The notes below the pieces were generated by a model that had not been told where the DNA came from, made no database searches, and saw only the letters and a list, made by a program, of their open reading frames with translations. Shown in pieces: positions 1 through 64,000 of a stretch of DNA of 64,000 nucleotides (position 1 is the stretch's first letter; every line of letters begins with the position of its first letter). The DNA comes from a virus. The stretch lies in IMG/VR virus record IMGVR_UViG_3300045988_162923, one strand, 5' to 3'. A program made the position numbers and the translations under genes.

Positions 1-1
1 T

Positions 2-472
2 CAATTTCTTACATTATTATTTCCAAATAAAAAAATATTATTTACTCCTAGAAGTATTATGCTTTAGGGAGAAGATAATACAAGTATAATTGATGAAAAT
101 AGTTTTGAGATATTACAATCTCTTACTAGAGAAATCTTTTGTGCTAAATCTAGTGCTTCGCAAGAATTAGGATTTAATCCTGCTAATGAGACAGCTAAAA
201 AAATTGCTGATAAACTAATGCGAGGGCGCTAGCGCGTTGCTGAATTAAATGGTAACGCTAATGCTAGTATATTTAGTTAGTATCTTTCAATGCTTACTGT
301 AGGTTTGAATTCTATGTCTCTACAGGATTTAATGGATTTAACAATGTTCCAACTTTTTGACCTTGTTGAGAGATATTAGCTTTATATTAATTGGGATATT
401 GATATCCGGTCTAGGTTGGCTGGCGCTAAGTCAGATAACAAGCCGGAAAATTGGATGAAAAATATCCATTAA
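2..472 (+). CDS. 3' end of a late/structural gene (partial at window edge), read with TAG as sense
   Basis: Frame 2 is open from the window start to TAA at 470-472 only if several in-frame TAGs are read through. An RBS and the next gene follow directly. Confidence 0.5.
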
Positions 473-495
473 ATTTATAAGGAGGAAAATAACCT

Positions 496-1494
496 ATGAA
501 ATTTGGTGTTCGTGAGATTTGCGATGTTGTTTTGAAGGCTAAAGCAGCTCAAAAGATCGGTAATAAAATCTTCTATAAGAATGAACCAGTTATCTATTTC
601 GATACATTAAAGACTTCTAGCATGGAAGGCGCAGCTACCACTGTATATGCTCAAGGTGGTCGTGGTAATGCTCGTTTAGTAGCTTGGGAAGGTGAAAGAA
701 CTGTTACTTTTACAATGGAAGATGCTCTTATCTCTCCAGAAGGCTTTATGATTCTTTCTGGTGCTGGTTTAATTGAAGCAAGTGCTACTAGCACTATTAA
801 ACAGCATATTACTGAAACTGTAGATAAGGCACAAATTGATAGTAAGACTACTGAGGGACAAGTTACTATTCGTGTTTCTAAAAAGCCTTATCTTCCAACT
901 AGTGAGCAAGAAAATTTTGCTTATGTTATGTTTGTTAAAGATGGCGAAATTATTTCTGAACCTTTTATTCCCGTCCATGAGGAGTTAACTGCTAAGAAAG
1001 ATACTAATGGCAATGAATATTTTGAATTGACTCTTAAAACTCCACATGATGATTATGTTGCTGGTACAGGTAATTATATTTTTAATGAAAATAATGGTCT
1101 TCCAGCAGCTACAGCATATGATAGTGCTATTGTTGATTATTATACTGAAAAGGCTAGCGGTGCGCAATAGATTGAAATTACTGCTGATAAATTCGGTGGT
1201 AACTATTATCTTGAGGCTTCTACCTTATTCCGTGATCAAAACGGTGTCGATATGCCTGCTGAATTTATAATTCCTAATTGTAAGATTCAGTCTAACTTTA
1301 CTTTCACAATGGCTTCTTCTGGCGATCCTTCTACTTTCACATTTACTATGGACGCATTTCCTGACTATACTCGTTTCGACCACAGTAAGAAAGTTCTTGC
1401 TGCTATTCAGATTATTGAGGAAGGCGGCGCTAGTGACATTCATAGAACTCAGACTGTTCATGATGCCAGTCACAACGCTCGTTTCACTGATTAA
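496..1494 (+). CDS. major tail (tube) protein candidate, 332 aa with one in-frame TAG at 1168-1170
   Basis: RBS AAGGAGG sits 8 nt upstream of ATG 496. Track ORFs 496..1170 and 1252..1494 share a frame and are separated only by TAG. The gene ends at TAA 1492-1494. The tail-protein call rests on its position upstream of the chaperone-like and tape-measure genes. Confidence 0.55.
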
Positions 1495-1497
1495 TTT

Positions 1498-1677
1498 ATG
1501 ATTATTAAAGGTAAGCATTGGGTTGTAAAGTCTGAACCTAGTGTTGAAAAGAAACCTGAAGTAATTAAGAAAGCAGAAAAAAAGGTAATCAAAGAAGTTC
1601 CGAAAGAAACAACAGTAGTTGAAGAAAAGAACGAATTAGATGAACTTTTATCTAAACTTGATAAAGAAAACAAGTAA
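1498..1677 (+). CDS. small Lys/Glu-rich protein (59 aa)
   Basis: ATG at 1498 lies just after the upstream TAA. The protein is MIIKGKHWVVKSEPSVEKKPEV... It ends at TAA 1675-1677 and is followed by a terminator. Confidence 0.5.
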   Translation: MIIKGKHWVVKSEPSVEKKPEVIKKAEKKVIKEVPKETTVVEEKNELDELLSKLDKENK

Positions 1678-1686
1678 ATAATATAA

Positions 1687-1717
1687 GGGAGAGGATTTAT
1701 TCCTCTCCCTTTATTTT
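1687..1717 (+). terminator. rho-independent terminator
   Basis: GGGAGAGGA-TTTAT-TCCTCTCCC hairpin followed by TTTATTTT. Confidence 0.7.
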
Positions 1718-1743: not shown

Positions 1744-2883
1744 ATGGTTTTATATAGTGATTCAGAAGATTATAGCGTAATTTTATAGCGAGTACATGAT
1801 CGTATAAAATTAAAAATGTATAGTCGTACTGCTAAAAAAGAAGCTAAAGAATTATAGACTATTTTATAGGAAATTAAATTAGCTGCTCATGATTTTGATA
1901 ATTTAAGCGATAGTTATATTGGTAATGAATTATATAATTAGTATTATGATCTAATTGATTAGGCGTTTAAAATCCAATCTGCTTATCATAATTCTAAATA
2001 GTTTTCCGCGCATACATTATTTAGAAGAGCGCATTATACAAGAAAAGATAAAAATGGTAAAATAGTTTCTTTAAAAAGTGGAGCTGATGATATTTTTGAA
2101 GAAGATTTGGCAGCATTATTGGCCGCTGGAGAATTTTTAGGAGGAAATGAAAATATTCAATTAGAATGTTTTCTTATGGGTGGTAAAAGTGCTTCCACAA
2201 AAGCAGTTGAAAAATATGATCCTCTTACAACAATATTTGATGATAATGGTACTAAAAAAAATGTAACTGACCTTTTGAAAGAATTAGCAGAAAAAGAATA
2301 GAAACGTATATCTACTTAGGTTCAAGGAGCTACAGGTAAAGTTGATATTAGCGGTAAAGCGGTAACTTTAAATTATTCAAAATAGTTACCTGGCAATGTA
2401 GAACGGTTAATGGAATTAATGAAAGATGCGACATTTTCTGCTAAAAACTATACTTCATACACCAATAATCTTGATATTAATAATAAAAAAGATTTGTCTG
2501 AAATTGGATTGCATTTAGGTAATACTAATTTATATAAAGCAGTTACTGGCGCTTTAAGTGAATTATAGATGGGCCATAAACAATAGACTAGATTTTTCTT
2601 TCGTGGTATGAATACTATTTTACATGATAAACATTCTTATGGTAGTATTACAGCTTAGCACTTTGCGCATTTAAGATTTGTATATGAACTAAGAGGCTCA
2701 GGCCTTTTAGATGAAAATGGGTTAGTTATGCCAGTTAAATATTTAATTTATAATGACCCAAATTCAGATGCTATATATGTAAAAGATACAGCATCAATTA
2801 TTTTAGAAGCATTAGATTCAGCTACTCGTTAGAATAATTTATTAGGTGATATTACATTAAGTGCTTCTAAAGTTGAATCTTGA
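1744..2883 (+). CDS. hypothetical protein between the tail-tube and chaperone/tape-measure genes (379 aa, about 10 in-frame TAGs)
   Basis: RBS GGAGGAAAT precedes ATG 1744. The frame is continuous to TGA 2881-2883 only with TAG read through. Track ORF 2107..2301 is an internal piece. Confidence 0.6.
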
Positions 2884-3602: not shown

Positions 3603-6600
3603 ATGCCAAAACAATTGAATGTGAATTTAGCTTTTACTGCGGATACCGGAACCGCACGAAGCTAGTTACAAGAGTTGTAGAACTCTTTAACTCGTTTGGT
3701 AAATACTTCTACTAAGCAATCAACTGGCTTAGGTTTAACAAAAGAATTAAATGATGCTACTACTGCGGCGGCTGAATTAAAAGTACATTTAGATTAGGCT
3801 GTTAATGTAAATACTGGTAATTTAGATTTTTCTAAATTAAGTGAATCATTGAAACGTAGTGGTAAGACATTATCTGAATATGGTGAACAATTATAGAAAT
3901 TAGGTCCAGATGGACAAAAAGCATTTTAGCAATTAACACAATCTATTACTAATGCTGAAATTCCTATTAAGCGTTCTAATGCTGCTGTATAGGAGTTATG
4001 GACTTCATTAAAGAATACTGCTCGTTGGCAAATGTCATCTAGTATGCTTCATGGATTCATGGGAGCCATTTAGTCTGCTTATGGGTATGCTAAAAATTTA
4101 AATGAATCTTTAAATGAAATCCGTATTGTTACTGGGCATAATATTGATTATATGGATAAATTTGCCGAAAAGGCAAATAAAGCCGCAAAAGCATTAAGTG
4201 CGACGACATTAGACTATACTAATGCTTCTTTGATTTACTATCAACAGGGTTTAAGTGACCAAGAGGTAGAAGATAGAACAGCAGTTACTTTGAAAATGGC
4301 TAATGTAGCTAATGAAAGTGCTACTACTATTTCTGAGCAATTAACTTCTGTATGGAATAACTTTTATGATGGTTCTGAATCTTTGGAACATTATGCTGAT
4401 GCGATGGTACGTTTAGGTGCTGATACTGCATCTAGTAGTAGTGAAATTTCAGAAGGTTTATAGAAGTTCTCCTCAGTTGCTGGTACTATTGGTTTAAGTT
4501 TTGATAATGCTGCAGCCGCTTTGGCAACTATTACAGCTACTACTCGTGAAAGTGCTGATGTAGTTGGTACAGCTTTAAAAACATTATTCTCTCGTATTCA
4601 AGGTTTGAATTTAGGATAGACATTGGAAGATGGTACTGACTTAAATAAGTATTCTACTGCTTTGCATAAAGTAGGTATAGAAATTAAAGACACTGATGGC
4701 CAATTAAAAGATATGGATATTATCTTAGATGAAATGGGTACTAAGTGGAATACTTGGAGTAGAGATACTCAAACTGCTTTAGCATAGACTGTAGCTGGTG
4801 TGCGTCAATATACTCAATTAATGACATTAATGAATAATTATGATTTTTATAAAGAGAATGTTGAACGCGCTAAGAATTCTGAAGGTTCTTTACAAAAACA
4901 AGCAGATATTTATGCTGAATCTTGGGAAGCTGCTCGCGACCGCGTGCGTGCCGCTTGGGAAGCTATTTATAAAGATTTGGTAAATGATAAAGCATTTATT
5001 TCTATTTTAAAGAATTTTGAAAAAGTTTTAAGTGGAGTAGATTTATTAATAAAATCTTTAGGTGGGTTAAAAGGAGTTATTTTCACTTTAGGGGCAATTG
5101 CAACGAAAGTTTTTCATAATCAAATTGCTTAGAGTCTTACTGATTTAAGTTATAATTTAAAATCTATGATTAAAGCAGGAAGAGAGTCTATTAAGAATGA
5201 ACGTATTGATTTTCTTAATAAAGCTTCTGAAACTACAGCTAATAAAGAATATTCAACAGAAGGCGAAAAAGCGCGTAATGATGGATTAAGAAAAGAATTA
5301 GAATTATAGATAGATATAATTGAAAATTCAGATAAGATGAGTGAATCTGAATTAAAAACAAATTAGATTTTATTAGATAGAATAAAAATTTTATCATAGC
5401 AAAGAGTTAAGATGGCTGAAGCTTATGAAACATCGAAAAATAAAGTCGGTGAATCAATGTATCAAGGCCGTCTTGATATGTATGTAGCTAGAGATGATAA
5501 AAATTTAGATAGCGAAAAAATTAAAAATTTAAATAAAGAATATTTAAATTTAACTTCTCGATTAAAAACTACAATTAAATTAAGAATTTCTACAAAAGAT
5601 GCTTTAAATTAGTTAAAAGGTATTAATGAAGAATTGTCCAATGCAGAACGAAAGAAAATGGTATTACAAACTATTATTCCAAATGATACTTAGGGTTTAA
5701 CTGCGGGAATAGTTAAAGATATACAAAAAATGGTTGAAAATCTTGATGAAGCAGCTTTTAGCGGAGATGAATTTGAAAATACTTTAGCAAAAATAGAAAA
5801 AGAATTAGTACGTATATAGACAGGCGCTGAAAATGGATTAGATGGATTATAGGTGTCTGATTCTACAATTCAAAATATGATACAACATTTACAAGAAATG
5901 TATCGTAATTAGAATAATTTAAATAATGGAACAGATGAGTTAAATTCAAAATATGAACATTTAAAAGAATTAATTAAATAGGCTTAGGGATAGCAAAAAA
6001 ATTGGGCAGATGGTATTGTTAATATTGCTAATTCTTTAAGTTCAATGGCTAGTATTTTTAATACAATTAAAGGAGTAATGGAAACTTTAGAAGATCCTGA
6101 TACCTCTTCTTGGGAAAAATTATCCTCTGTATTAATGGGTATTGGTACAATAATTCCTATGATTACTATGATGTTCAATAAAAATACAATCGCTTCATAT
6201 GCGGCAGCAGGAGCGCACATTGCTTAGGCTATTGGACTTAAAAGTATAAATTTGGCTGCTGAGGGAGCAACAGGAGCTATAGGAGCATTTACTGCTAGCA
6301 TTGGTGTTTTATTAGGTGCTGTAGCAGTTGCAGTTGGAGTTATTGCAGCTTTAGCTTTTATTATTAAAGAAGTATATAATTCTTCAGCAGAGGGAAAATT
6401 AAAAAAAGCTTAGTAGGCTTTAGATAATTTAACAGATGCTGCTACGGAAGCTAAAACTGCGGCTGATGGGTTAAAGAATTCAATAGAGTCTTATGATAGT
6501 GCTATAGATAAATTAGAAGAATGTAAGCGTGGAACCGAAGAGTGGAAATAGGCTTTAATTGAGGCTAATGATGCTGCTTTAGAAATTATCAATACTGCAT

Positions 6601-9600
6601 CAAATTTATCAGGAAATGACATAAGAAATTTATATTCTCGAGATAAAGATAATTTAATCCATTTTGATACAGAATAGTTATCTTAGTTATAGACTAATGC
6701 TACTTTACAAAGTTCATTGATGAATTATGCAGTTGCTGCAGGATAGAATGATGTTGCCTAGGCTACTTTAAATGAAAAAAGTTTAGATTTAAGCGGAATT
6801 ATAGCCGGGCATACTACAAAAGCTATCGAAGGAGGACAATCTCATAATCCAGATAGCTATAGACTAGGTACTTCAGAAGTATAGCAAATTATTTTAGATA
6901 ATTTAGATAAATTATCTGAATCTGTACCTTTAAATGAATTTAAAAATTATTTAGAAGAGTGTGGAATTAAACTACACAGTGTTACTGATGATTAGTTATC
7001 TGCTTGGCAAACAAGTATTTAGAATATGGCGCAAGAAGCAGATGGAGCATCTGCTAAATTAGAATTATTATCTTAGTTAAAAGCAGATGAAATTTTAGGT
7101 GATGATTATACCACTGACGAAAAGAATTTTGCTGCTAAAGCAAATGCAGCTTTTATTACTCAATAGGCGGATTATTATAAACGTTTAATGGGACATGATG
7201 GTGCTTTTACTGAAGTAAATTAGGCTCACCCAGATAAAAAAGTAGATTTAGGTGGTATTAATAGATGGTCTGGAAGTCAGAATGATGTTTATTAGTATAT
7301 TTTAAAAGCTTTATAGGAGTCTGGTTAGAATATTTATGCAGCTTCTAGTAATGCTATTCGAGGAACAGATACAAATCGTTCTTTTGCTTTTACTTAGAAT
7401 GGTGAAGAAATAGTTTATACTAAAGAAGAAATTGCTAATATGTTAGCAGCTTCTGATGCTATTTAGTAGATGGGCAATAGTGCTAGTAAGGCACGAGAGT
7501 TGCTTTCTAAATTTAGCGCAGATTCAATCGGTAAAGTAACCACTTTAGTTAATGATTTCAATTAGAAGACTAAAGAGTTCGATGTTACTTAGCTTATGGG
7601 AGAATGGGATTCTAAAATGTTAAATGAATTTTAGAATGCTATTGGCGATGAGACTAATGGAGTTAATGTTGCTGAAATAGTAACTAAAAAAATGGGTCTT
7701 ACTCCTGAAGAATTTAATAATATTTTAGACACTTTAGGAGTTGAAGATGCTGGAGCATAGTTTGGTTAGGCTATTTTAGATGGATTACAAGGAGTAGAAG
7801 ATTCTTTAAATCCAGAAACTTATTCTAAAAAATGGCGTGAGAATAGTACTGATACAGAAGGTAACAGCATATTAGCTGATTCATTTGATGAATTATTACT
7901 TAATGATGATAAAACAGGATTAAAGTATAATGGTATTAGCAGGAATTAGATAGCTGAATTTGCTTAGACTTATGAAGCAATTTTTAATAAATTTGGTACT
8001 GAAGGCTTAAATGTAATAGATAATTTACTTAATCAATTTGGCGATGAGGCTGGTAAAGTTGCTGGAGTTATTGGCGATATTGACTGGTCTAGTGACACTT
8101 CTTTAAAAGATTTTCAATCCGCATTAAATAATGTTGGAGTTACTACAGCGGGTATAGATTTAAGTAAATTTATTACTTAGATGGATGAAATTTATAAAAT
8201 TGCTGATTCAGATGCTTTATCCAAAGCATAGTCTAATTTTAAAGAAATAAATGATATAGTAAAAAATCTTAAATTAGGAGATACTATTTCACCAGAAAAT
8301 TATGCTAAATTGGGTGATGGAGCTGATTAGTATTTTACTAAAATGGCCGATGGCACTTATAAATTGACTACAGATACTAAAGCTTTTTATGATATTGTTA
8401 TGCGTCAAAGACGCGATGAATTTACATAGGCTTATAAAGATGCTTAGTCTAAAGCTATGGAATTACAAACATAGAAAGAAAATGCTACTCAAGCTTTACA
8501 AGGAACAACTACAGAGGAATTGGGTAAATCAGCTTATAAAGTTGATGATAATTCATATAATGGTTTTAAAGTAAAATAGTAGCTGAATTTCTTATAGGCT
8601 ATGGGTTATGACCAAGGGAAGATTGACAATTGGGCTGCTGATGCTGAAAATGGTCAAATGTATAAAGATACTTTAAATGAAATTGCTGGAGCTGTCCGCA
8701 ATATGACAATAGAGTATGAAAATTTAGATTCAGCAAGGGAAAAAGAAAATAATACCGCAGAAGAAGCTAAAACAAATATTTTAACTACTGTAACTTCTAT
8801 TAAAGATTTGAAAAATGAAATTGCTTCTAATGATATATTAGGAGAAGAAGATTATGGTAAAGGTCTTAGCTTATTAGCTTTATAGTATGAAGAATGTAAA
8901 GACGCTTATACTAATTATGTTAATGTTGTAAAAACTGGTAATCCTTATTTAATAGAATAGGCAAAAAAAACTTTAGAAGAGTCTATTAGAGCATAGGAAG
9001 TTTCTAAATTAGGAATAGAAACTTTAGGAGATTTAGCTAAAGCATAGCGTAAAGGTTAGATCACTAAAGATGATATTAATGCGTATGATAATATAGCGAA
9101 AAAAACCTTAAAAGGTCAATAGGCATTGGCTACTTATAATAAAGAAATGGCCAATGCTCGAAAAGGTACTGACGATGCCACTAAAGCTGCTTAGAAATAT
9201 AAAAGAGCTATTGAAGAAATCGAAGTAACTGATTTAGCAAGTGATATTAATAACTTAATGACTGAGTTTAGTAAACTTACTAAAGAAGAACAAGAAGGCG
9301 ATAAAGGTTTTGATAAACTTACTTCAATTGCTGAAAATTTAAAAGATATTTTTGGAGCAGATTTTGATTATTATGATGCTAATTTTGTTAAGGGACATTG
9401 GGATTTAATTAAATAGTATTTAACAGGAACTTTAGATGAATAGCGCCAGGCTTCCATTGAATTAGCTATGTTAGGTAAAACTAATACTTAGACTATGACT
9501 GAAGCAATTAGTAATTCATTTGCTGAAGTTGGTGTAGATGCTAGTCAATGTACTGGATTAATCCAACAGGTAGAATCTACTTTACAAAATGCTAATTTTA

Positions 9601-26054: not shown

Positions 26055-26058
26055 TAAT

Positions 26059-26095
26059 AAAGGCTTGGCCTAATAGGCCAAGCCTTTATAAATTT
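26059..26095 (+). terminator. rho-independent terminator
   Basis: AGGCTTGGCC-TAAT-AGGCCAAGCCT hairpin followed by a T-rich tract. Confidence 0.7.
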
Positions 26096-26832: not shown

Positions 26833-26840
26833 AATAATTA

Positions 26841-52996: not shown

Positions 52997-53266
52997 TTAA
53001 TTAACCTCTATATTTAAATTTAAAGAATAATTATTTCTATTTACACTATTGATTGATTCTACAATTTCTTCAATATAATTTGTCTATCCAAAGAAATGAA
53101 TATCATTAATTTTACAATTATAACAATTGTGTAAAATCTCCATAGCGAATGAATTAATATCATTTAAAGAATATTTTCCTAAAAGAGATTGTTCGCTTGG
53201 AGAGATTTTATATACTTTCTATTCACTATCAAATAAATCAATGATAGCAACAATTTTTGTATCCAT
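52997..53266 (-). CDS. hypothetical protein (89 aa, two TAGs)
   Basis: ATG 53266 overlaps the upstream stop as TAATG. It ends at TAA 52997-52999. Confidence 0.45.
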
Positions 53267-53835: not shown

Positions 53836-53864
53836 ATTATAACAAAAAATTTTAAAGTCGTCAA
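53836..53864 (-). promoter_or_regulatory. consensus promoter TTGACG-17-TATAAT on the minus strand
   Basis: The minus strand reads TTGACG (plus 53859-53864), a 17-nt spacer, then TATAAT (plus 53836-53841). It lies upstream of the gene starting at 53805 and overlaps the 3' end of nrdG. Confidence 0.55.
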
Positions 53865-54346
53865 TTTTTATCTGATTTTAAATAAATAATATGCTAATTT
53901 TTACTTCCACGCATGGGTAATGATACATCTCTTTGCTCTTGGATATATGGACCATCAATCAAGACATCAATACTGCTAAGGATTTCTTGAAGTTTTCCAT
54001 TATCTTTTTGTTTAATTAAATCATCATAATAATATCCAGTCCATACATAAATTTTTGTATTAGGGAGTTTTTCTTTTATAGTACGAACCAAAAGTAAAGT
54101 AAGTAATTGATTCTTTTCACATAAAGGTTCTCCACCCATAATACAAAAATTTCGATGAATACCATTTGCCTATAATGCTTGAGTAATTTCAGTAAATATA
54201 TCACTCGTAAATTCTTTACCACCATCAAAATCCCATGTTTCAGGGTTATGGCATCCTTCACAATGATTAGGACAACCTTGAACAAAAAATGATACACATA
54301 CTCCCGGGCCTGCGGCAATATCATTTTTTATAATTCCTGCGTATTT
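53861..54346 (-). CDS. nrdG: anaerobic ribonucleotide reductase activating protein NrdG
   Basis: It reads ...GIIKNDIAAGPGVCVSFFVQGCPNHCEGCHNPETWDFDGGKEF...IMGGEPLCEKNQ...WTGYYYDDL...GSKN(Q)HIIYLKSDKN. The radical-SAM CxxxCxxC motif is there, two TAGs are read through, and it ends at TGA 53861-53863. No in-frame ATG exists upstream of the conserved N-terminus. The likely initiator is ATT at 54346-54344, 7 nt after GGAGGA. Confidence 0.65.
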
Positions 54347-54352
54347 AATAAG

Positions 54353-55015: not shown

Positions 55016-55359
55016 TCCATAACCTCCCAAGAACAACAATATAAACTACAGCAAGGAATAATTATTTTTTTTAATATTTCTTCATTATTATAATTTTTAG
55101 ATATTTTTACTTTATAAAGTCTATAACCTTTAGTATTCCAGGTTATAGGTAACCATATCCATCGCTCATTATTTTCTTGCCATTCTATACGAGTTTTTGA
55201 TACTCTGATTGGTATAATATTATTTTTATTTAAATAATTATAAATTTCTTGTGAATTGTCGGTTATATAAGCACATACCACTATCTAATTAGAACAAGGA
55301 TATTTTCTTCCTTGTTGCTAATTAAAATAGTTTGCTAAATCATAAATTAGCTATATCAT
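55012..55359 (-). CDS. Trp-rich hypothetical protein (115 aa)
   Basis: ATG 55359-55357 overlaps the nrdD terminal TGA as ATGA. It has three TAGs and ends at TGA 55012-55014. Confidence 0.45.
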
Positions 55360-57617
55360 TCCATCTACCCCGTATGTTTTACTCGTGCTTCTACTTCTTT
55401 TTGTTTACCATAGTTAAAAGCAGTTTTATAGTTTCCAGTTAAATAACCGGTTACACGGCGCAGCTATTGAATATTAGAACTGCCGCATTCAGGACATTTA
55501 TCATTAAATTCATCACAGTATCCGCAATCAAGACAAGTATCATTAGGCACGTTTACTGCGAAATAAGGAATATCCTTATCCATGGCATAATTAACAATTT
55601 GTTCAAGGGCTTTAATGTTATGTTTTACTGTTGAATCTAATTCTACATAAGTAATACAACCAGCAGAGGAATAACCAGTTAATTGGCTTTCAATATCAAT
55701 TTTATCAAATGGTGACATCTTTTCCCATACAGGAACATGAATACTATTAGTAAAAAATTCTTTATCTGATACATTCTTAATAACACCATATTTTTCTTTG
55801 AACTTATTCATAGCAGTATAACAAAGGTTTTCCGCAGGAGTATAATATACACCAAAATTAAGCTTATATTTCTCCTTAAATTCTGCGCAACGACGTTTAA
55901 ATAATCCTTCAATGCGCTTAGCTAGTTCCATACCTTCTTTAGTTGTCTGGTCTTTACCAATAAGAATTTGAAGGGCTTCAGCAAGACCAATCTACCCGAT
56001 AGCCAAAGTACCATGTTTAAGCGCACTTCTAATCCCTTCTTCTGGAATATAGCCAGCCATTAAATGATTCTCATACATAAACTTAGCAGATTTCGGGTCT
56101 TGAGAACAAATCCATTCAAATCGTTCCATCAATTGAATTCTTGCTTCATTAATCTTTTGATCTAAAATTTCAAAGAAAGCTTCATCAACTTCCATACCCA
56201 TGATATGACATTCTTGATTTGCTATCATAGCTAAGGTAGGGAGAATAATAGTTACTGGACAAATATTACCACGACCATCTTTTAGCTAACCGAAACCATT
56301 AATATCGTATCCATTGGCTGTTCTACATCCCATTGTAGAAAAATAGGTGCGTGGGTCATTAATATCATATCCCGCATTTCCAGACCAATCAACATTTGCA
56401 TAGTTAGGATATAATCTTTGAGCGGTTGAGCGTAATGCGAGTTTAAATAAATCGTAATTTGGATCTCCTTCTTTACGATTAACACCTTCCATACACTGAA
56501 AAATTCCGCAAGGGAAAATAGATGTTTTATGTAATTTACCAATACCTTCAATGGACACATCCAAAAGTGCTTTAGTAATCATTCTTCCTTCTGGAAGAGT
56601 ACAAGTGCCATAATTAATAGAAGTAAATGGTAACTAATTACCTGAACGAGATTGTAAAGTATTAAGATTATGATACATACCTTCTACTGCTTGATGGACT
56701 TCTTTTAAAGTCATATCCATAGCATATTGATATACTTTATCAAAATCTCCAGCATCATCTACTTCATTTAAATAAGCTGAATAATCATTAATTGGAATAT
56801 CTATAATTTTTTTATAAGTATTACTATCTTCTAAATAATTATCTAAATCCCAATTACAATTACATAAGTATTTCATACCATCTCGATAATGCTTATAAAA
56901 AGATTTACGAACATAAGGAACCATAGTCCAATCAAGATGGGTCGCACTTACTCCTCCGAATTGAGAAAGGCTTTGAATTTGGAAAATAACAGCTACTAAT
57001 TGGAAAGCTGTATTTACTGAACCAGCTGGACGCACATCTGTCTAACGTGTATTAAATCCATTAGCAAGTAAATCATCAAAAGGAATACTTAAACAATTAT
57101 GAGAACCAACATAATAAGCATCAAGGTCATGAGTATAAATCATATTATTTAAATGATTATCTCTTGCCATTGGTGATAAGATATAATCTAAAGCTAATTG
57201 TTTAGTTACTACACTACTGGCTTCACCAATACGTCCGCCAAATGATGCTTCATCAACGTTAGCATTTTGATTTTTAATATCTTTACCATCAAGCTTTTTT
57301 CTAATGGCTTGAATAAAATCATCTTTCTTTTCACGAGCAACTTCTTTTTTATATCTATATCTAATATATGCACGAGCTACATCACGACGCTCAGAGCGCA
57401 TCAAATAATCTTCAATCCAATCTTGGATATCTTCTACCCCTACGCTACCATCAGGGAAATGATTTGCTTGACGTTCAATGTCATTAGCGATATCTTGAGC
57501 AGTATCATTTTCATAAAGCTATCCATCAACTTCAATAAATGCTTTATTAATAGCATTAATAATTTTATTTTTATCAAATAAAACAATTGTGCCGTTGCGC
57601 TTTATAATATAAATCAT
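55356..57617 (-). CDS. nrdD: anaerobic ribonucleoside-triphosphate reductase NrdD (about 753 aa, about 6-7 in-frame TAGs)
   Basis: RBS GGAGGAATATAA precedes ATG 57617. The N-terminal ATP-cone reads MIYIIKRNGTIVLFDKNKIINAINKAF. Track ORFs 57042..57404, 56634..57035, 56286..56582, 55992..56228 and 55464..55931 all share the frame. The C-terminal Zn-ribbon and glycyl-radical motif read ...CLDCGYCDEFNDKCPECG...LRRVTGYL. It ends at TGA 55356-55358. Confidence 0.8.
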
Positions 57618-57685: not shown

Positions 57686-58258
57686 TTAATTAAATCCGTC
57701 TGTCCAATCGCGGATTTGCCTTCCCATAGCATATACAGCGGGATAAAAATCTTTTTTAATTTCATTATTAATAGTAGTATAATTAAAATCTGATAAATCA
57801 GAAAAATCAATTTCATCTGCTTTAAAACGTCTAAATATTTCTTCAATATTAGGATCGCTTTCTCGACTTAGCTGACGAATTAATCTTTCTTTATCTGAAG
57901 CTTCAATATAGAATACTTTTAAATCAATACGAGAATCTTTCATTAAGCTTTCAACTCCCGCAGGGTTAAATACTCCAATATTAATTTTGTTTTCATTTAA
58001 TGAATTAATGGCAGTACCATACCCCCAAGAGTTAAATACTGTCGCTTCTAACATTTTATTTTCTAATACTAATTGAGAAAATTCTTCATTAGAAACATAA
58101 TGATAATTAATTCCTTCTTGCTCTCCTTCTCTAATTGGACGAGTAGTATAACTAATTATTTCATTTAAATTTTTTTCGGTGTCATGGTGAAGGATAGCCT
58201 TCATAAGACTATCCTTCCCGCTTCCCGCTTTGCCCATAATGGCTACAATTTTATACAT
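57686..58258 (-). CDS. gmk: guanylate kinase-like nucleoside monophosphate kinase
   Basis: Intact 190-aa ORF. P-loop GKAGSGKDS and the guanylate-kinase signature TTRPIREGEQEGINYHYVSNEEF are present. Its ATG follows the DnaE TAA by 3 nt. Confidence 0.7.
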   Translation of the reverse strand: MYKIVAIMGKAGSGKDSLMKAILHHDTEKNLNEIISYTTRPIREGEQEGINYHYVSNEEFSQLVLENKMLEATVFNSWGYGTAINSLNENKINIGVFNPAGVESLMKDSRIDLKVFYIEASDKERLIRQLSRESDPNIEEIFRRFKADEIDFSDLSDFNYTTINNEIKKDFYPAVYAMGRQIRDWTDGFN

Positions 58259-61200
58259 CTTCTTCTATTCCTCCCTGATAACGAGTATTACGTAATGTAA
58301 TAGTTCCATCATCAAAAATTTCATCAATTTTATATAACTGGTGACCAGGAGAAGAAGCATATTTTTTAGCTATAAAATTATCTCCTTGGCGCACGCCCAT
58401 AACTACAATCATATTTCCTCGGTTGAACCAGGACTTTTCAACGATATGCTTTACTCCATCCGATCCTTTTTCTGAAATTTGTTTATCAAATAAACTGAAA
58501 TATTCTTTTCTGAATTTTACTTCAACAGGACCAGTAGTAGTAAGAATAGTAACAGTACTTTTAGTTTTATTTTTAGCAATACACGTACCGCAGATTGTAT
58601 TTAATTTATAAATATGAATCGTTTTACCACCTTTAGTGAAACTTCTATCTACTTCTGGTTCTTGCGGAAGAGCAAAGAAATCTGCGAATCCATATTTTTT
58701 ATTATTAATGTCTTTTAATTCGTGATTGTGGTAATAGAAGCAAAGCACTTCCATTTCCCATGCTGATAAATTATTTTTACCAGTATATTTATTCCAATCT
58801 TCTTTGAAAATAACTGCGTTTAAATTTTCAAGAATTTCTGTTTTATTCTCATTAATCCAATCGCGGAATACATCCATCCAAGGTTGATAGACTTTTTTAT
58901 CCCATATTTTTTGGTCTAACTTCGCGCCCTCTTCAATTAAATTATCTTCACCAATTTCAACTAAGAAATTAATTGCTCTCATATCTAGTTTATAAAAACT
59001 TGCTGTATCTTTACAAACTGCTTTTAAATATCTATTAAATTCAAAAACACGACGAGCCATAATTTGTTTATCAGTATCTTCTGGTAATAATTTATATTTA
59101 ATTAAGCTACTCATATTCTGTAAAGTAATACGACTCTTTTTATCACAAGTTTCCCAAATATACCAGCCCATTAATAATTTTCTATCCATCATATTATCAA
59201 AAGCACCGCCTTTAATAAGAGATACCATAGCTTGTTTACTAGGCTTAATTTTATATAAAAAATCTTTTGGAGAAATATATGGACGGTTAGTAATAATAGT
59301 ATTAACTAAATCATCACCAACATTTAACATTCCTTTTAATCCAAAAAGAATTTTATTATTTTCAATGTCAGGAGCAAAACCAAACTTAGATTTATTAATA
59401 TCTGGCAAACCGATTTCAATACCTGCTTTTTGAATATCACTAATAGCTTTAGCAATTTTTCCATAATCAGTTGAAGCAGTTCTTCTAATTTTTGCGCTCT
59501 TATCTGGTAAATCTTCAAATGTTACACCATTTGCTAAATCGTCACCTTCAGGAGCATAAATATCGACTAGCTCTTCTTCCGTATTATCTTCCAATGAACC
59601 ACTATTAACAATTAAACAAGCGGTATCCCAATAAATAGGATTATAATTTATTACTAAATAAATCATTTGAATTGCTACAAAAGAATAAGGTAAAGAATGA
59701 TTTAAACTAAAAGCATAACCTAATTGTGGAGCAACCGCAATTTCCCAGAAGTATTCAGCAACTTTAGGATTATCAAATTTACTGAATACTTGCTCTTTTA
59801 ATTGCGGGATTTTTGACATTTGTTTTTTAGCAACAACTTTACGAGCACTATTTGCTTCGCCTAAAGTAAATCCCGCAATATCCATGAGGATTTCCATCAT
59901 TTGTTCCTGAATAGGACAACAACCATAGTATTTATCACAATGCTTATGAAATTTATCAATCAAATCTTGTGGTAAATGATTTTGCTTCATTTCAGCATCA
60001 AATACTTGAATACCTTGATGCTGAATTCGATAATATCTATCTTGCTGAGATTCTTTGCCTTTTTCAGACATTAAACGCATCATAGCATTTGCTGCCGTCA
60101 TTTCCATAGGATCTTGCGGTTTTAGCCTCTTAGCAATTGCTAATCCAACTCCAGTAGAGAACTGGAATACATCAAGTACATCGCCTGCCGCCAAGTGATC
60201 CCAAATACGTTGATCTGTTGTGTCTATCACTTCTGGATGAATATACTTATTATAAAATTCTCTTAAAGGTAAGTCAGGAATTTGATTATCTTTTAATAAT
60301 AATTGATAACAAGTAATTATTTTATCAGAAGCTTCAGTTACAAGGAAATCATATTTAGTATCGCCAGCCGCTTCCGCTTTATGCAAATCATAACAAGTGA
60401 TAATATCACCACTGGGAGTGCGCATAAAAGATGCTGTTTCAAATGGGTCATCACCATATAAAATAACGCCAGAAGCATGAGAAGAACGTTTATTAATAAT
60501 ACCTTCAATATAAATAATAATATCTAATAAACCATCATATTGATTTACTTCTCTAATAAAAGCTTGAATTGGCTTGCGGTCTTTTTCTTCATTGCCATAA
60601 ATAACATCATGGATTGGCCATAAAAATCCTCTTTCTTGAGGAATTAGAGAAGACATATATTGTGCTTGATCATTATCAATACCTTCTGGAAAATCTTCTG
60701 ATCTATATCCACGGCAAGCTGTTAATACCGCAGATTTAGTTCCTTCAGTACCAAATGTAGCAACTTGGACTAAGCCTAAATCACCACGTTCATCACGAAT
60801 TGCTTTAAAAATAGCAGGACGCTTACTTGGCGCAAGATCAATATCAATATCAGGTAATTCAGCACGTTCTTTATTTAAAAAACGCCAATAAGGTAAACCC
60901 CAACGAATAGGATCAAGCTGTGTAATACCTAATAAATAATTAGATAAAAAACCTGTTGCTGAACCACGGCCAGGACCTACAATAGAACCACATTTCCAAA
61001 ATAAATCAATATAATGTTTAAAAGTATTAAAATAAGCAAACAAACAATCATCCAATTTTTCACCAATATCTTTAATAATATCAGCTTCAATTTCAAGACG
61101 ATTTAAATAAATATCTAACTTATCATCTGAAATACTTTTATCATACATCTTTTCTAATAAAGACATATAACATTCATTAACCCAATATCTTTCCTATGGG

Positions 61201-62246
61201 TTATCACTCATTAATAAGCTACATAAAATAGGATATTTTTCTGTGCGCTCAAACCAACCAGCTAATGATTGAGGATAATCAGTTACTTCTACTTTTGGAA
61301 TAATTTGCTTTCTTTCTAAAGAATAAAAAGAAATTTTACTTTGAATTTTTTGAGTATTATCTAAAATCCAATCTAAAATTTCTTTTCCTGATTTATTACT
61401 ATCCCAAGTGTTAGCATCATTTTCCATTAATTCAAAGATTTCATCGCTTGTCATTAAATGCGCAAATTCATAGAAAGTATCAACTTCTCGTTCGCCTTCT
61501 TTAGAATTTAAATACGCTTTATGAATTGCTCTATCTTCTTTTGTTAAATAATGAGAGTCAGTACCAATTACCATTTTCAATCCAGTAGATTGAGATATTT
61601 TATAAATTTGTCTATTAACAATCATCTGGTCTTCTTTATTAGAAGGCGCACACTCAAGATAAAAATCATCTTCACCAAATACTTCAATACAATAATTAAT
61701 AAAATCCATTATTTGAATTGAATAATTAGTTACTGTATTTTGGTCATTAACTAAATTAGCTTCATACATTGGAAGTAAACAACTACCAAGTTCTCCACCA
61801 ATACAAGCTGTAGTAGCAATAACATGACCTTTATATTTAGACATTACATCTTTTAATTCGCTTTTTAAAGTAGGAACACGTTCCATACGTCTATCAACAT
61901 AACTATTAATCCAAGCAATAGAACTTAATTCTCTTAATGCTTTATGACCAATAGCATCTTTAGCTAATAATAAAAAGTGATAATATTTTTGTCCAGTTTG
62001 ACGAGTTTCAGTTAAATAGATTTCATTACCAAGTGCGATAGTAAAATCAGGATTTGTTTCCTATAATTTCTTCGCATATTGATTAACTTCCATATGCGCA
62101 GATAAGCATTCATGGTCAGTAATTGCTATTCCAGATAAACCTAATTCGATAGCTTTATCAATTAATGCTTGAGGACGATTAATTGAGTCTAATAGTCTAA
62201 TATTAGAATAATGAGTGTGATTATGAATACCAAAGTAACTTCTCAT
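58251..62246 (-). CDS. dnaE: DNA polymerase III alpha subunit (DnaE-type replicative polymerase), about 1331 aa with two in-frame TAGs
   Basis: Track ORFs 62061..62246 (PHP start, HNHTHYS), 61194..61886 and 58251..61166 share one frame. They are separated only by TAG at 62061-62063 and 61194-61196. RBS GAAAGGATAATTAA precedes ATG 62246. It ends at TAA 58251-58253. Confidence 0.85.
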
Positions 62247-62291
62247 TTAATTATCCTTTCTTATATTTCTATAAATATTATAACATAATTT

Positions 62292-62562
62292 TATAAAAAA
62301 ATCAATAATAGCAATTATCTAAATAGCGATCACAAACCTATCTTATATCACGTACAAAATTTTCAAGTTTATGGTCAAGCATTTGATGATTAATTGAATT
62401 AGTAACAATTTTGCCGTCTAAATCCTATAATTCATTATTTACCTTTTTAATAGTTTCTGCGATACTACCTCTTAATGTATTCATCAAATTTTCATCTTTT
62501 AAAAACATATTACTATTTAACATAGCAACTAAAGATGAATCAAGCATTGAATTATCTATCAT
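62292..62562 (-). CDS. hypothetical protein (about 89 aa, two TAGs)
   Basis: RBS GGAGTAATTAAT precedes ATG 62562. It ends at TGA 62292-62294. Confidence 0.45.
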
Positions 62563-62678
62563 ATTAATTACTCCAATTCAAAATGTACCTACTAACGTCA
62601 ACTAATTATATGAATTTTTTAACAATGTAGGAACCATAATAATATCAAAATCAATAGTTAAAATAATATTTTTTATAA

Positions 62679-63872
62679 TCATTTCTTTACAATAACAATT
62701 TTTTCTTTCGCTCTAGTCACCATAGTATATAAATACTATGTATGTGTTAATTTATCATGTGGATGCCCTTCTTCAAACCCTAATACTTTATCGTATTCAC
62801 TTCCTTGTGCCTTCCAACAACTAATAGCATAAGCATAAGCAAAATCAAAAGGAGGATCTGGACACATCTAATTTTTTCTCATTTTATAGCATTGTGGTCC
62901 AGTTAAAGTAGCCTAGCCACTTTTTAATTGTTCATAATCAATAGGGACATCTTGGAAATAATCTCCATCTTCTAGGTCAAAAGTAGCATTCATATAAATA
63001 ATTGGTTTATCATAAATATACAAAGGTACTCTTTCAACTGTATTATAATAATTAGTTAAAGTACCAATCATACCATTTGTTAAAGCCCAAGTTCCAGAAG
63101 CAGAAGAAAAATCCCAATTATTATGTAAACTAATAATTTTATCACCAATTTCTGGTTCATCAGATGTAAAGCCTTTTAATTTTCTGACAGTTTGATTTAA
63201 TAAAGTTCTTCTATCATTAGTCGCACAAATGATTTGGTCTGCCCATTCATACATTCCTTCTCGAAGCTAAGACAAATTAATAATCATAACCTAATTTCCA
63301 TCAGGTTTATAAGAGTAGATAGGCTTTCCATCTCTAATCCACATTGACAACCGAATAATTTCGCTATCTTGCGCTTGCCGCATAATTTCATCTAAGAAAA
63401 TATGGGGTTTATCTAAAACATGGTTATTATCTGCTTCTTCTATTGGAGGTAGCTAACCGGGGTCTCCAGCTGCTATAATATAAATACCATGACTTAATAA
63501 AAGATGCCACATAGCTGAAGGAAGCATAGACACTTCATCAACTACAATTACTTTATATTGAGATAATTCTTCATTAGATTTTGGAGTAAATTTATATCTT
63601 CCATTCGGTAGCATACGAGCTTTATATAATAATTTATGAGCTGTAGTAGCATTAGGACATCCTTTCTATTGAAGAACAGTAGCAGCTTTTCCTGTAAAAG
63701 CAACATAGCATACTTCTGTTTCTGGATCAACATCTAAAGCTGAAATAATAAATTTAATTAAAGTACTCTTGCCACTTCCTGCATAACCCGCTATGCAAGT
63801 CCAACGTTCATGGTTTTTATATCTTTCAACAGCAATTTTTAATCCCTATTCTTGTTTCGCAGTTAAAATCAT
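62679..63872 (-). CDS. Dda/RecD-like SF1 DNA helicase (about 397 aa, seven in-frame TAGs)
   Basis: Walker A AGYAGSGKST, Walker B VVDEVSM and motif III AAGDPG(TAG)LPPI are present. The TAG in motif III sits at the invariant Gln. Track ORF 62913..63254 is an internal piece. It ends at TGA 62679-62681. Confidence 0.75.
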
Positions 63873-63876
63873 AATT

Positions 63877-64000
63877 AATCATGTTCTCCCATTACTTCGT
63901 CAAGGATTTGAATAAAACGCATTACATCTCTTTCATAAAGGGATTTAGCTGTTGAAAGGCTCATTCCTTCATGCACATCAACTTGTATTGCTTTATATCG
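63877..64000 (-). CDS. 3' end of an upstream minus-strand gene (partial at window edge)
   Basis: Open frame ...FIQILDEVMGEHD ends at TAA 63877-63879, just before the helicase ATG. Confidence 0.4.

What the first reader, a model, noticed from the sequence alone, without database searches (positions are those of the whole stretch)
1..64000. TAG density is strongly skewed: very dense in late/structural genes, sparse in replication genes, with TAG-free islands
The tape measure and fibre genes carry roughly one TAG per 30-40 codons in the stretches I read. DnaE has 2 in about 1331 codons. NrdD has about 6-7 in about 753. gmk, dut, the 51154..51597 gene and 53266..53694 have none. Inside the late block several long segments are TAG-free: 19086..20303 (406 codons), 26140..26832, 26841..27419 and 50332..50799. 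The skew matches the proposal that suppression-dependent translation times late gene expression. The TAG-free islands look like recently acquired or differently regulated modules.
Basis: seen in the sequence. Interest (0 to 1): 0.7.

Follow-up and report, generated by a model that had tools for sequence, protein, structure and literature searches.

The report
Uneven amber-codon use in recoded phage
This is part of a large uncultured phage that reads the stop codon TAG as glutamine. It uses TAG freely in most genes but almost never in its DNA polymerase and a few other genes, which is a new example of a pattern already described for recoded phages.

Summary
The counts are right and the skew is real. 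With TAG read as sense, 45 genes hold 372 TAG among 872 TAG+CAA+CAG codons. Heterogeneity between genes gives G=150, df 42, p~5e-14.

- **Class contrast.** The tail module has 309/635 TAG per Gln codon. Seven replication and nucleotide-metabolism genes have 23/127.
- **Single genes.** Only DnaE (2/52) is significant after correction. Helicase (8/19) and RuvC (5/10) are average.
- **TAG-poor late genes.** An abundant-looking virion protein (1/12) and the holin (2/12) are TAG-poor.
- **TAG means Gln.** It sits at invariant Gln positions and aligns mostly with Gln in standard-code relatives.
- **Late genes are at equilibrium.** Their TAG:CAG ratio (8.0) equals CAA:CAG (8.0) and matches TTG:CTG (7.4). 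TAG there behaves as an ordinary synonymous codon, so the signal is depletion in a few genes.
- **Depletion is conserved.** Eight other TAG-recoded clades give DnaE 0/344, NrdD 8/243 and helicase 4/116, against RuvC 28/70.
- **Islands are weak.** They exceed chance only marginally, have normal GC and flank-like divergence, and ~90%-identical relatives carry TAG inside them.
- **No suppressor tRNA** was found in the window.

This is a known phenomenon (Borges et al.) in a new phage family. The timing reading is plausible for DnaE but untested.

The parts
3603..12800 (+). Tape measure protein gene, the TAG-richest large gene: 107 TAG in 3065 codons, 54% of Gln codons
   Evidence: PHROG tape-measure families, best E=3.9e-61; counts
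12917..18199 (+). Tail-fibre-like gene: 38 TAG in 1760 codons (50% of Gln codons); probable TTG start
   Evidence: phrog_1980 tail fibre, E=1.8e-17
28644..36383 (+). 2579-codon tail or fibre protein: 40 TAG (45% of Gln codons)
40877..43339 (+). Gene with the strongest TAG preference among large genes: 17 of 22 Gln codons
   Evidence: p=0.005, BH q=0.054
1744..2883 (+). Fast-evolving gene, 13 of 17 Gln codons are TAG; only 24% identical to the 82% clade and replaced in ~90% relatives
496..1494 (+). TAG-poor late gene: virion structural protein in the major-tail-protein position. 1 TAG in 12 Gln codons, one of the highest GC values among the genes, head-gene-like codon usage
   Evidence: phrog_2729, E=2e-55
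18981..20303 (+). TAG-free run 1: 441 codons inside gene 18357-21236, with 11 CAA/CAG
25818..27419 (+). TAG-free run 2: 501 codons over the end of 23892-26054, all of 26140-26832 and the start of 26841-28523, with 13 CAA/CAG
50332..50799 (+). TAG-free stretch 3: 156 codons, 6 Gln codons; not significant
46888..47277 (+). Holin: 2 TAG in 12 Gln codons, so a TAG-poor lysis gene
   Evidence: phrog_13712, E=5e-35
58251..62246 (-). DnaE-type DNA polymerase III alpha subunit: 2 TAG, 41 CAA, 9 CAG. The one clear outlier
55356..57617 (-). Anaerobic ribonucleotide reductase NrdD: 7 TAG in 32 Gln codons; the last TAG lies 3 codons before the TGA stop
   Evidence: PDB 8p23, E=1e-124
57686..58258 (-). Guanylate kinase: 0 TAG in 4 Gln codons
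   Evidence: phrog_1815
52221..52751 (-). dUTPase, by sequence resemblance only: 0 TAG in 4 Gln codons
   Evidence: Counts; ortholog counts. No family search was run on this protein
51154..51597 (-). Gene of unknown function: 0 TAG in 6 Gln codons here, but 14/45 in relatives
62679..63872 (-). Dda-like helicase that is NOT TAG-poor: 8 of 19 Gln codons, including the motif-III Gln
   Evidence: phrog_325, E=1.6e-91
51675..52187 (-). RuvC-like resolvase: 5 of 10 Gln codons are TAG, and TAG-rich across the family (28/70)
53861..54349 (-). NrdG activase: 2 TAG in 9 Gln codons; no canonical start codon

Best explanation
The window is the tail, lysis and part of the replication region of a large (about 100-200 kb), AT-rich, uncultured tailed phage in which TAG has become a regular glutamine codon. 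Presumably a phage suppressor tRNA(CUA) encoded elsewhere in the genome reads it.

In most genes TAG, CAA and CAG drift as three synonyms under AT pressure. Both TAG and CAA are one transition from CAG, so both end up about eight times commoner than CAG and TAG settles near half of all Gln codons. That is the 'dense' state.

The skew comes from purifying selection that keeps TAG out of a minority of genes. These are genes whose product is needed when suppression is absent, weak or costly:
- the replicative polymerase DnaE, in every relative;
- in most relatives also NrdD, helicase, NrdG, dut and the topoisomerase subunits;
- separately, the most abundant virion proteins, which show codon usage typical of highly expressed genes.

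In the window's own lineage this barrier has partly eroded. TAG has spread into NrdD, helicase and RecJ.

Shown: the recoding, the Gln meaning, the equilibrium ratios, and the family-wide depletion. Inferred: the reason for the depletion (timing for DnaE, efficiency for abundant proteins) and the existence of a suppressor tRNA in this genome.
For: **Recoding.** Coding coverage is 44% under table 11 and 105% with TAG as sense. All 45 genes end in TAA or TGA.

**TAG = Gln.**
- TAG sits at the GDxxQLPP helicase motif and at the conserved NrdD Gln.
- In standard-code relatives the majority residue is Gln at 28 of 128 window TAG sites. The weighted share is 19% against a 5.5% background, with a substitution profile like that of CAA sites.

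**Equilibrium in late genes.** TAG/CAG 8.0, CAA/CAG 8.0, TTG/CTG 7.4. DnaE has TAG/CAG 0.2 although its TTG/CTG is 8/0.

**Conserved depletion.**
- DnaE has 0-2 TAG in all 39 orthologues.
- Over eight other TAG-recoded clades: DnaE 0/344, NrdD 8/243, helicase 4/116, NrdG 1/21, dut 2/32, against RuvC 28/70.
- In 16 of the 17 genomes with both loci, the replication locus gives 0.11-0.28 and the structural locus 0.29-0.45. The 17th is the standard-code genome (L019/L092, 0.00 and 0.06).
- A TGA-recoded relative shows the same split: replication genes 0 TGA, RuvC 4 TGA against 2 TGG.

**Abundant virion proteins.**
- The putative capsid gene has 2/373 TAG and prefers CAG 260:111 over 28 relatives.
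- The two window genes with the most head-like codon usage, 48999-49871 and 496-1494, have TAG shares of 0.17 and 0.08.

**Competition with termination matters.** The base after sense TAG is shifted towards A and C and away from T and G relative to CAA/CAG (chi2 p=1.7e-5).

**Suppressor tRNAs exist in the family.** tRNA(CUA) genes occur in tRNA arrays in TAG-poor early regions of distant members. They have an unpaired U1 and G73.

**Published model.** Borges et al., bioRxiv 10.1101/2021.08.26.457843.
Against: - No suppressor tRNA lies in the window or in 133 kb of the ~90%-identical relative.
- No expression data exist, so 'early' and 'abundant' are assigned from function and gene order only.
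- The capsid assignment rests on position. PHROG, Pfam and PDB gave no named hit.
- In this window the helicase, RuvC and NrdD need suppression. A clean early/late switch therefore cannot hold here.
- TAG positions within genes are uniform, with no 5' gate.
- The holin is TAG-poor, contrary to the published lysis-gene bias.
- The correlation of TAG share with head-like codon usage over all genes is weak (rho=-0.19, p=0.26).
- Part of the strand-block difference reflects strand composition: the synonymous T/C ratio is 17 on plus-strand genes and 10 on minus-strand genes.
Confidence: 0.6

Rival explanations
1. Conservation alone explains the skew. TAG is a young codon that accumulates wherever proteins evolve fast (tape measure, fibres). 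It is rare in slowly evolving enzymes simply because few substitutions have happened there. No selection against TAG as such is needed.
For: - TAG sites are less conserved than CAA sites. Gln or TAG is retained in relatives at 0.18 of TAG sites against 0.37 of CAA sites in the tape measure, and at 34% against 52% overall.
- The most diverged genes are the TAG-richest: 1744-2883 (24% identity, 0.76) and the tape measure (37%, 0.54). DnaE is 82% identical with a share of 0.04.
- Island 1 is slightly more conserved than its flanks.
Against: - The correlation of identity with TAG share is weak (rho=-0.32, p=0.13).
- Well-conserved genes can be TAG-rich: 55012-55359 (89% identity, 3/7) and 59-472 (81%, 4/8).
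- DnaE orthologues differ by up to 60% in sequence, and their CAA/CAG choice ranges from 49:1 to 10:34. Gln codons therefore turn over, yet TAG stays at 0 of 344.
- RuvC at a similar divergence holds 40% TAG.
Confidence: 0.15
2. Translation efficiency and accuracy alone explain the skew. Suppressor decoding competes with release factor 1, so every TAG costs yield. Selection removes TAG in proportion to how much full-length product is needed, and infection timing plays no part.
For: - The putative capsid and neighbouring head genes are TAG-free and prefer CAG.
- Virion protein 496-1494 and gene 48999-49871 combine head-like codon usage with low TAG.
- The base following sense TAG is biased towards A and C. 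From my knowledge of amber-suppression context effects in E. coli, these are weak termination contexts.
Against: - DnaE has ordinary codon usage (rank 12 of 45, CAA-dominated) and is not expected to be abundant, yet it is the strongest outlier.
- The 3065-codon tape measure carries 107 TAG. Read-through must therefore be near complete when it is made.
- The overall correlation with codon adaptation is weak.
Confidence: 0.15
3. TAG-poor genes and TAG-free islands are recent imports from standard-code genomes that have not yet acquired TAG.
For: - The fibre region 23.9-28.5 kb is mosaic against ~90% relatives.
- The family contains standard-code members that could act as donors.
Against: - DnaE, NrdD and the other TAG-poor genes are syntenic and present in all clades. 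Their divergence tracks the family.
- Island GC (25-31%) lies within the block's range. Island 1 diverges like the rest of its gene.
- The 26140-26832 gene is 90-91% identical to its orthologues, like its surroundings.
- Relatives carry TAG inside island 1 and inside the 26841 N-terminal part.
Confidence: 0.05
4. The strand-block contrast is a by-product of strand-specific base composition. It is not related to gene function.
For: - GC skew flips at about 51 kb with gene orientation.
- The synonymous T/C ratio at Leu first positions is 17 in plus-strand genes and 10 in minus-strand genes. This predicts a lower TAG share on the minus strand (0.38 against 0.54 by the TTG/CTG analogue).
- The minus block without DnaE and NrdD is at 0.40.
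Against: - DnaE's own T/C ratio is 18, yet its TAG share is 0.04.
- Heterogeneity is strong within each strand block (p=4e-6 and p=1e-5).
- TAG-free head genes lie on the same strand as TAG-rich tail genes.
Confidence: 0.05

Closest known systems
Alternatively coded (code 15, TAG to Gln) gut phages with standard-code replication genes and recoded structural and lysis genes (Borges et al., bioRxiv 10.1101/2021.08.26.457843; clades crAss-like, Garnet, Amethyst, Topaz, Lak)
   Same: - In-frame TAG read as Gln.
- Low GC.
- Structural genes full of TAG, with variable and lower use in replication genes.
- Relatives on standard code and on TGA recoding within one family.
- Suppressor tRNA(CUA) genes in TAG-poor regions of family members.
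   Different: - 39 of 45 genes (87%) carry TAG here, above the 26-71% clade means quoted in that paper. The window is biased towards late genes, which may inflate this figure.
- The holin is TAG-poor, whereas lysis genes were the most recoded in crAss-like and Agate phages.
- Several replication genes need suppression here.
- The most abundant-looking virion proteins avoid TAG. That paper's main text contains neither 'capsid' nor 'highly expressed'.
phAss-1 / proposed Phassvirus group (Babkin et al. 2023, PMC10607447; GenBank OQ749652)
   Same: - Human or animal gut phages with TAG as Gln in tape measure, portal and fibre genes.
- The window's virion protein and the neighbouring putative capsid protein are about 50% identical to phAss-1.
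- The phAss-1 capsid-like gene is annotated intact under the standard code, so it is also TAG-free.
   Different: - phAss-1 is 136 kb with 36 tRNAs, including three tRNA-Sup(CTA), and only 28% of its ORFs are interrupted.
- The window's lineage is more heavily recoded.
- No tRNA was found in 133 kb of its close relative.
crAss-like phages with TAG or TGA reassignment in late genes (Yutin et al. 2021, PMC7886860)
   Same: Genome blocks compatible with different codes, and suppressor tRNAs.
   Different: - Unrelated virion and replication genes (Crassvirales, Bacteroidota hosts).
- The nearest cultured relatives here are large siphoviruses of Enterococcus, Lactococcus, Bacillus and Clostridium.

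Membership tests
TAG-to-Gln (code 15) recoded phage | Many genes are interrupted by in-frame TAG and become full length when TAG is read as sense | tested here: met
   Coverage by ORFs of at least 100 aa is 44% under table 11 and 105% with TAG as sense. TGA as sense gives only 53%. 39 of 45 genes carry TAG, and all end in TAA or TGA.
TAG-to-Gln (code 15) recoded phage | TAG stands for glutamine | tested here: met
   TAG lies at the invariant Gln of helicase motif III and at a conserved NrdD Gln. Gln is the commonest residue at 128 TAG sites in standard-code relatives, 3.5-fold over background. One NrdD TAG aligns with Phe/Tyr in three PDB homologues.
TAG-to-Gln (code 15) recoded phage | Phage-encoded suppressor tRNA with anticodon CUA | tested here: inconclusive
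   None in the window or in 14.3-147.0 kb of the 201-kb relative. Present in distant family members L336, L337, L339, L341, L355, L356 and L358. About 68 kb of the relative's genome could not be fetched.
Temporal code-switch model (Borges et al.) | Recoded codon depleted in replication/early genes and common in structural genes | tested here: met
   23/127 against 309/635 Gln codons. Fisher p=8.5e-4 even without DnaE. Family-wide. Exceptions: helicase and RuvC, which are average, and the TAG-poor virion protein 496-1494.
Temporal code-switch model (Borges et al.) | Lysis genes preferentially use the recoded codon | tested here: not met
   The holin 46888-47277 has 2 TAG in 12 Gln codons. No endolysin was identified in the window.
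Temporal code-switch model (Borges et al.) | Code-change genes (suppressor tRNA, and in some clades a release factor or aaRS) are themselves written in standard-compatible code | tested here: inconclusive
   In distant relatives the loci around tRNA(CUA) are TAG-poor (17/175 and 16/167) and the adjacent ORFs have 0 TAG. This could not be examined for the window's own genome.
Temporal code-switch model (Borges et al.) | TAG-free genes are expressed before the TAG-containing ones | not testable with these tools
   No transcript or protein data are available, and the host is unknown.
phAss-1 group (proposed Phassvirus and relatives) | Shared virion proteins and synteny with phAss-1 at genus-level nucleotide identity | tested here: not met
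   No megablast match to any GenBank phage. Protein identity to phAss-1 is only about 50%. This is a distant relative, not a member of the genus.

The most novel reading that the evidence does not exclude
In this lineage TAG is no longer a timing device. It is a codon in the last stage of capture. It has reached neutral equilibrium in almost all genes and has invaded replication genes that eight sister clades still keep clean. It is excluded only from a handful of hold-outs: DnaE, the topoisomerase subunits and the major head and tail proteins.

If so, the family would offer a graded natural series for measuring how a stop codon is captured gene by gene. The series runs from standard code, through late-gene-only recoding, to near-complete recoding, with a parallel TGA branch. 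It would also show which genes resist capture and why.
Probability: 0.3. Interest if true: 0.5.

Novelty: new member of a known kind. Interest (0 to 1): 0.3.

Why it matters
It adds a well-sampled family of large gut phages to the known cases of stop-codon recoding. The fetched loci alone include 49 TAG-recoded, 28 standard-code and 3 TGA-recoded members.

It also sharpens how the known skew should be read:
- The 'dense' genes are simply at synonymous equilibrium.
- The informative signal is which few genes stay free of the recoded codon.
- That set includes abundant late proteins as well as the replicative polymerase.

For annotation, the practical point is that the window must be called with table 15. 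For biology, the timing hypothesis remains untested here.

Tried and rejected
- **Megablast against GenBank phages.** Window 40-62 kb gave no match.
- **Rfam at gathering thresholds.** Nothing found.
- **Structure prediction.** The TAG-free N-terminal 224 residues gave pLDDT 31. That model is unusable, so no fold search was run.
- **Naming the putative capsid protein.** PHROG, Pfam, PDB and annotated phages returned only 'unknown' or 'hypothetical'.
- **Search for the suppressor tRNA.** No tRNA lies in 14.3-147.0 kb of that contig. tRNA(CUA) turned up only in distant members. A short-match BLAST of those tRNAs against the window and close relatives found only 12-base chance hits.
- **The 18357-21236 protein as a query for distant relatives.** It found only two near-identical contigs, so the islands could be compared only with ~90% relatives.
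- **The window as part of contig ..151351.** Rejected: nucleotide identity is only 89-97%.
- **A 5' 'gate' of TAG codons in late genes.** Rejected: positions are uniform (KS p=0.26).
- **TAG coding for Tyr.** Considered because one NrdD TAG aligns with Phe/Tyr. Rejected: Tyr is the majority residue at 1 of 128 sites.

Full report
**What the window is**

The 64-kb window has 28.9% GC. ORFs of at least 100 aa cover 44% of it under the standard bacterial code and 105% when TAG is read as sense. Reading TGA as sense hardly helps (53%). I delimited 45 genes.

- The plus-strand block 59-51118 is a tail and lysis module.
  - It holds a virion structural protein (phrog_2729).
  - It holds a 3065-codon tape measure (E=3.9e-61) and fibre-like and tail proteins.
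  - It holds a holin.
- The minus-strand block 51154-63872 holds replication and nucleotide-metabolism genes.
  - RuvC-like resolvase, guanylate kinase and Dda-like helicase have PHROG hits.
  - NrdD matches PDB 8p23 at E=1e-124.
  - NrdG is identified by alignment to a relative's orthologue.
  - dUTPase is named by resemblance only.
- All genes end in TAA (35) or TGA (10).
- There is no tRNA and no Rfam family at gathering thresholds.

**Is the observation in the sequence?**

Yes, at the stated coordinates.

- DnaE has 2 TAG in 1331 codons and NrdD has 7 in 753.
- gmk (true start 58258), dut, 51154-51597 and 53266-53694 have none.
- The tape measure has one TAG per 29 codons.
- In total there are 372 TAG among 872 TAG+CAA+CAG codons in 20,644 codons.

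**Is it more than chance?**

- Heterogeneity across genes, per putative Gln codon, gives G=150 on 42 df, p=5e-14 and Monte Carlo p=2e-4. Without DnaE the p-value is still about 1e-7.
- By function, seven replication/nucleotide genes hold 23/127 against 309/635 in the tail module. Without DnaE the figure is 21/75, Fisher p=8.5e-4. Mann-Whitney on per-gene shares gives p=0.007.
- The picture is not a clean two-class one.
  - After multiple-test correction only DnaE stands out on its own (2/52, q=2e-10).
  - NrdD (7/32), gene 18357-21236 (12/47), virion protein 496-1494 (1/12) and gene 48999-49871 (3/18) are low at q~0.05-0.07. Gene 40877-43339 (17/22) is high at the same level.
  - Helicase (8/19) and RuvC (5/10) are average.
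  - The zeros in gmk, dut and 51154-51597 rest on 4-6 Gln codons each.
  - The whole minus block without DnaE and NrdD (0.40) does not differ from the plus block (0.47, p=0.23).

**What TAG encodes**

- In the helicase a TAG occupies the Gln of motif III (GDPGxLPP against GDxxQLPP in three solved homologues).
- In NrdD a TAG aligns with a conserved Gln. Another aligns with Phe/Tyr.
- The family of this phage includes standard-code members. At 128 window TAG sites with such orthologues, Gln is the majority residue at 28, followed by Glu 19, Ala 14, Asp 13 and Lys 8. Tyr is the majority at 1.
- Weighted, Gln is 19% against a 5.5% background. At CAA sites it is 32%, with the same Lys/Glu-dominated replacement profile.
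- TAG therefore means Gln. TAG sites are on average less conserved than CAA sites (0.18 against 0.37 in the tape measure).

**Dense genes are at equilibrium and the signal is depletion**

TAG and CAA are each one transition away from CAG. Under AT pressure both should exceed CAG by a similar factor.

- In the plus-strand genes TAG/CAG is 8.0 and CAA/CAG is 8.0.
- The analogous synonymous pairs give TTG/CTG 7.4 and (AAA+GAA)/(AAG+GAG) 5.3. These predict a TAG share of 0.54, against 0.47 observed.
- TAG thus behaves there as an ordinary synonym.
- DnaE has TAG/CAG 0.2 although its TTG/CTG is 8/0.
- The synonymous T/C ratio is lower on minus-strand genes (10 against 17), and GC skew flips at about 51 kb with gene orientation. 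Strand composition therefore contributes to the block-level contrast, but not to DnaE.

**Relatives**

DnaE retrieved 46 viral contigs. The structural protein retrieved 316 candidate stretches, of which the best 80 were kept. The contigs are mostly 100-200 kb. The closest, about 201 kb, is only 89-97% identical in nucleotides, so the window comes from a different genome.

- Among the 80 structural loci, 49 are TAG-recoded, 28 use the standard code and 3 are TGA-recoded.
- DnaE has 0-2 TAG in all 39 orthologues.
- Over eight TAG-recoded clades outside the window's lineage the pooled counts are DnaE 0/344, NrdD 8/243, helicase 4/116, NrdG 1/21, dut 2/32 and gmk 5/39. RuvC has 28/70 and the 51154 homologue 14/45.
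- In 16 of the 17 genomes for which both loci were fetched, TAG per Gln codon is 0.11-0.28 around DnaE and 0.29-0.45 in the structural and tail loci. The 17th is the standard-code genome (L019/L092, 0.00 and 0.06).
- A TGA-recoded relative shows the same split. Its replication genes have 0 TGA and RuvC has 4 TGA against 2 TGG. A tRNA(UCA) sits at the boundary between the replication block and the late block.
- The depletion is therefore old, maintained and convergent. This argues for selection and against recent import.
- The window's lineage is the most permeated. NrdD, helicase and, just beyond the window, RecJ (14 TAG) need suppression. DnaE and the topoisomerase subunits (0/19 and 0/7) stay clean.

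**TAG-poor late genes**

- Immediately upstream of the window in the close relative, three head genes downstream of the portal (after a 541-aa gene) have no TAG.
- One of them is the putative major capsid protein, so named from its position only. Over 28 TAG-recoded relatives it has 2 TAG in 373 Gln codons. It prefers CAG over CAA by 260 to 111 in genomes where CAG is otherwise rare.
- In the window, the two genes whose codon usage most resembles those head genes are 48999-49871 and 496-1494. Both are TAG-poor.
- DnaE has ordinary codon usage.
- The base after sense TAG is A in 42%, T in 19%, G in 25% and C in 14%. After CAA/CAG the figures are 31, 28, 33 and 8% (p=1.7e-5). From my knowledge of amber-suppression context effects in E. 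coli, this shift favours read-through over termination.
- Together these points suggest two reasons to avoid TAG: independence from the suppressor (DnaE and the replication core) and translational yield (abundant virion proteins).
- TAG positions within genes are uniform, with no 5' gate.
- The holin is TAG-poor, unlike the lysis genes highlighted by Borges et al..

**The TAG-free islands**

- The runs are 18981-20303 (441 codons) and 25818-27419 (501 codons). They contain 11 and 13 CAA/CAG, so they are not merely Gln-free.
- They exceed chance only modestly. The longest and second-longest runs give P=0.036 and 0.002 under a Gln-aware null, and 0.08 and 0.03 as runs of non-TAG Gln codons.
- Their GC (25-31%) lies within the block's spread.
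- Island 1 is 96.8% identical to a relative against 94.7-94.9% for its flanks in the same gene. It is a slightly more conserved domain, not a foreign segment.
- That relative has a TAG inside island 1 where the window has CAG. It also has five TAGs in the first 190 codons of the 26841 gene, where the window has CAA, CAG or ACA.
- Only the small 26140-26832 gene (5 Gln codons) is TAG-free in all three genomes.
- The islands are therefore lineage-specific fluctuations, perhaps helped by local constraint. They are not separately acquired or separately regulated modules.
- 50332-50799 is unremarkable.

**The suppressor**

- No tRNA occurs in the window or anywhere in 14.3-147.0 kb of the 201-kb relative.
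- In more distant family members, tRNA arrays lie 4-10 kb upstream of an exonuclease gene in the early region. They include a tRNA with anticodon CUA.
- These tRNAs have U1 unpaired with position 72 and G73. From my knowledge of GlnRS identity rules, this resembles bacterial tRNA-Gln.
- The surrounding loci are TAG-poor (17/175 and 16/167).
- For the window's own genome the suppressor remains unlocated.

**Comparison with what is known**

- The skew of recoded stop codons towards structural and lysis genes, with replication genes in standard-compatible code, is published. So is the idea that this times late expression. The published cases cover crAss-like, Lak and several other clades (Borges et al.; Yutin et al., PMC7886860).
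- The nearest described group is phAss-1 (PMC10607447), at about 50% identity in two virion proteins.
- The nearest cultured relatives infect Enterococcus, Lactococcus, Bacillus and Clostridium.
- The finding is thus a new member of a known kind.
- Modest additions are the equilibrium argument, the family-wide invariance of DnaE, the TAG-free abundant virion proteins, and the erosion of the barrier in this lineage.

**Verdict**

Its generalisation is too clean.
- The timing interpretation is plausible for DnaE but unproven, and it is incomplete.
- The island interpretation is not supported.
- Interest is low to moderate.

Noticed in passing
window 54340-54352 (minus strand), start of NrdG 53861-54349: NrdG aligns with homologues from its first codon, but that codon is CTT followed by ATT. 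There is no ATG, GTG or TTG. The ORF begins directly after the TGA of the upstream gene, with GGAGGA 8 nt upstream. This suggests a non-canonical start or coupled re-initiation.
   Followed up: partly
window 55365-55367 (minus strand), codon 751 of NrdD: The last TAG of NrdD lies three codons before the TGA stop, and solved homologues end there. This TAG would give a functional protein whether it is read as a stop or as Gln.
   Followed up: no
window 47324-47974 (minus strand): A response-regulator receiver plus LytTR-like gene sits on the opposite strand inside the late block, next to the holin. It has 1 TAG in 6 Gln codons. It could be a regulator of late or lysis genes.
   Followed up: partly
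L049 3989-6710 (relative, just upstream of the window's left end): Three head genes, including the putative major capsid gene, have no TAG. Over 28 TAG-recoded relatives the capsid candidate has 2 TAG in 373 Gln codons and prefers CAG to CAA by 260 to 111.
   Followed up: yes
L022 12245-12316, L025 12269-12340, L036 22156-22227: TGA-recoded relatives (53% DnaE identity) carry a tRNA with anticodon UCA at the boundary between the replication and late blocks. They show the same skew: replication genes have 0 TGA, and RuvC has 4 TGA against 2 TGG.
   Followed up: partly
L049-L128 (80 loci around the virion structural protein): One protein family at 61-96% identity spans 49 TAG-recoded, 28 standard-code and 3 TGA-recoded loci of similar GC. 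The code has therefore changed repeatedly within the family.
   Followed up: partly
L024, L028, L030, L037, L046 and others (DnaE matches): In several relatives the DnaE match spans about 5 kb instead of 4 kb, and the aligned protein is split. This suggests an insertion in the gene, such as an intein, an intron or a homing element.
   Followed up: no
L166 3478-4866: A 462-aa membrane protein in the relative's early region has 24 CAG, 0 CAA and 0 TAG. It is a true codon-usage outlier and a better candidate for a recently acquired gene than any island in the window.
   Followed up: no
window 1745-2880, 5162-10448 and 27052-28484: These stretches have no nucleotide alignment to one or more ~90%-identical relatives: the gene after the major tail protein, the middle of the tape measure (missing in one relative only) and the C-terminal part of a fibre gene. 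They show mosaic exchange in the tail module.
   Followed up: partly
all 372 in-frame TAG codons of the window: The base following sense TAG is enriched in A and C and depleted in T and G compared with the base after CAA/CAG (chi-square p=1.7e-5).
   Followed up: partly
L358 4494-4842: A distant relative carries a tmRNA gene (tag peptide AKPYRLAA) inside a 12-gene RNA array (11 tRNAs plus the tmRNA) that also holds a tRNA(CUA).
   Followed up: no
window 58251-58258: The gmk start codon overlaps the end of DnaE by 8 nt. The longer ORF 57686-58360 with one upstream TAG is probably not the real gene.
   Followed up: yes
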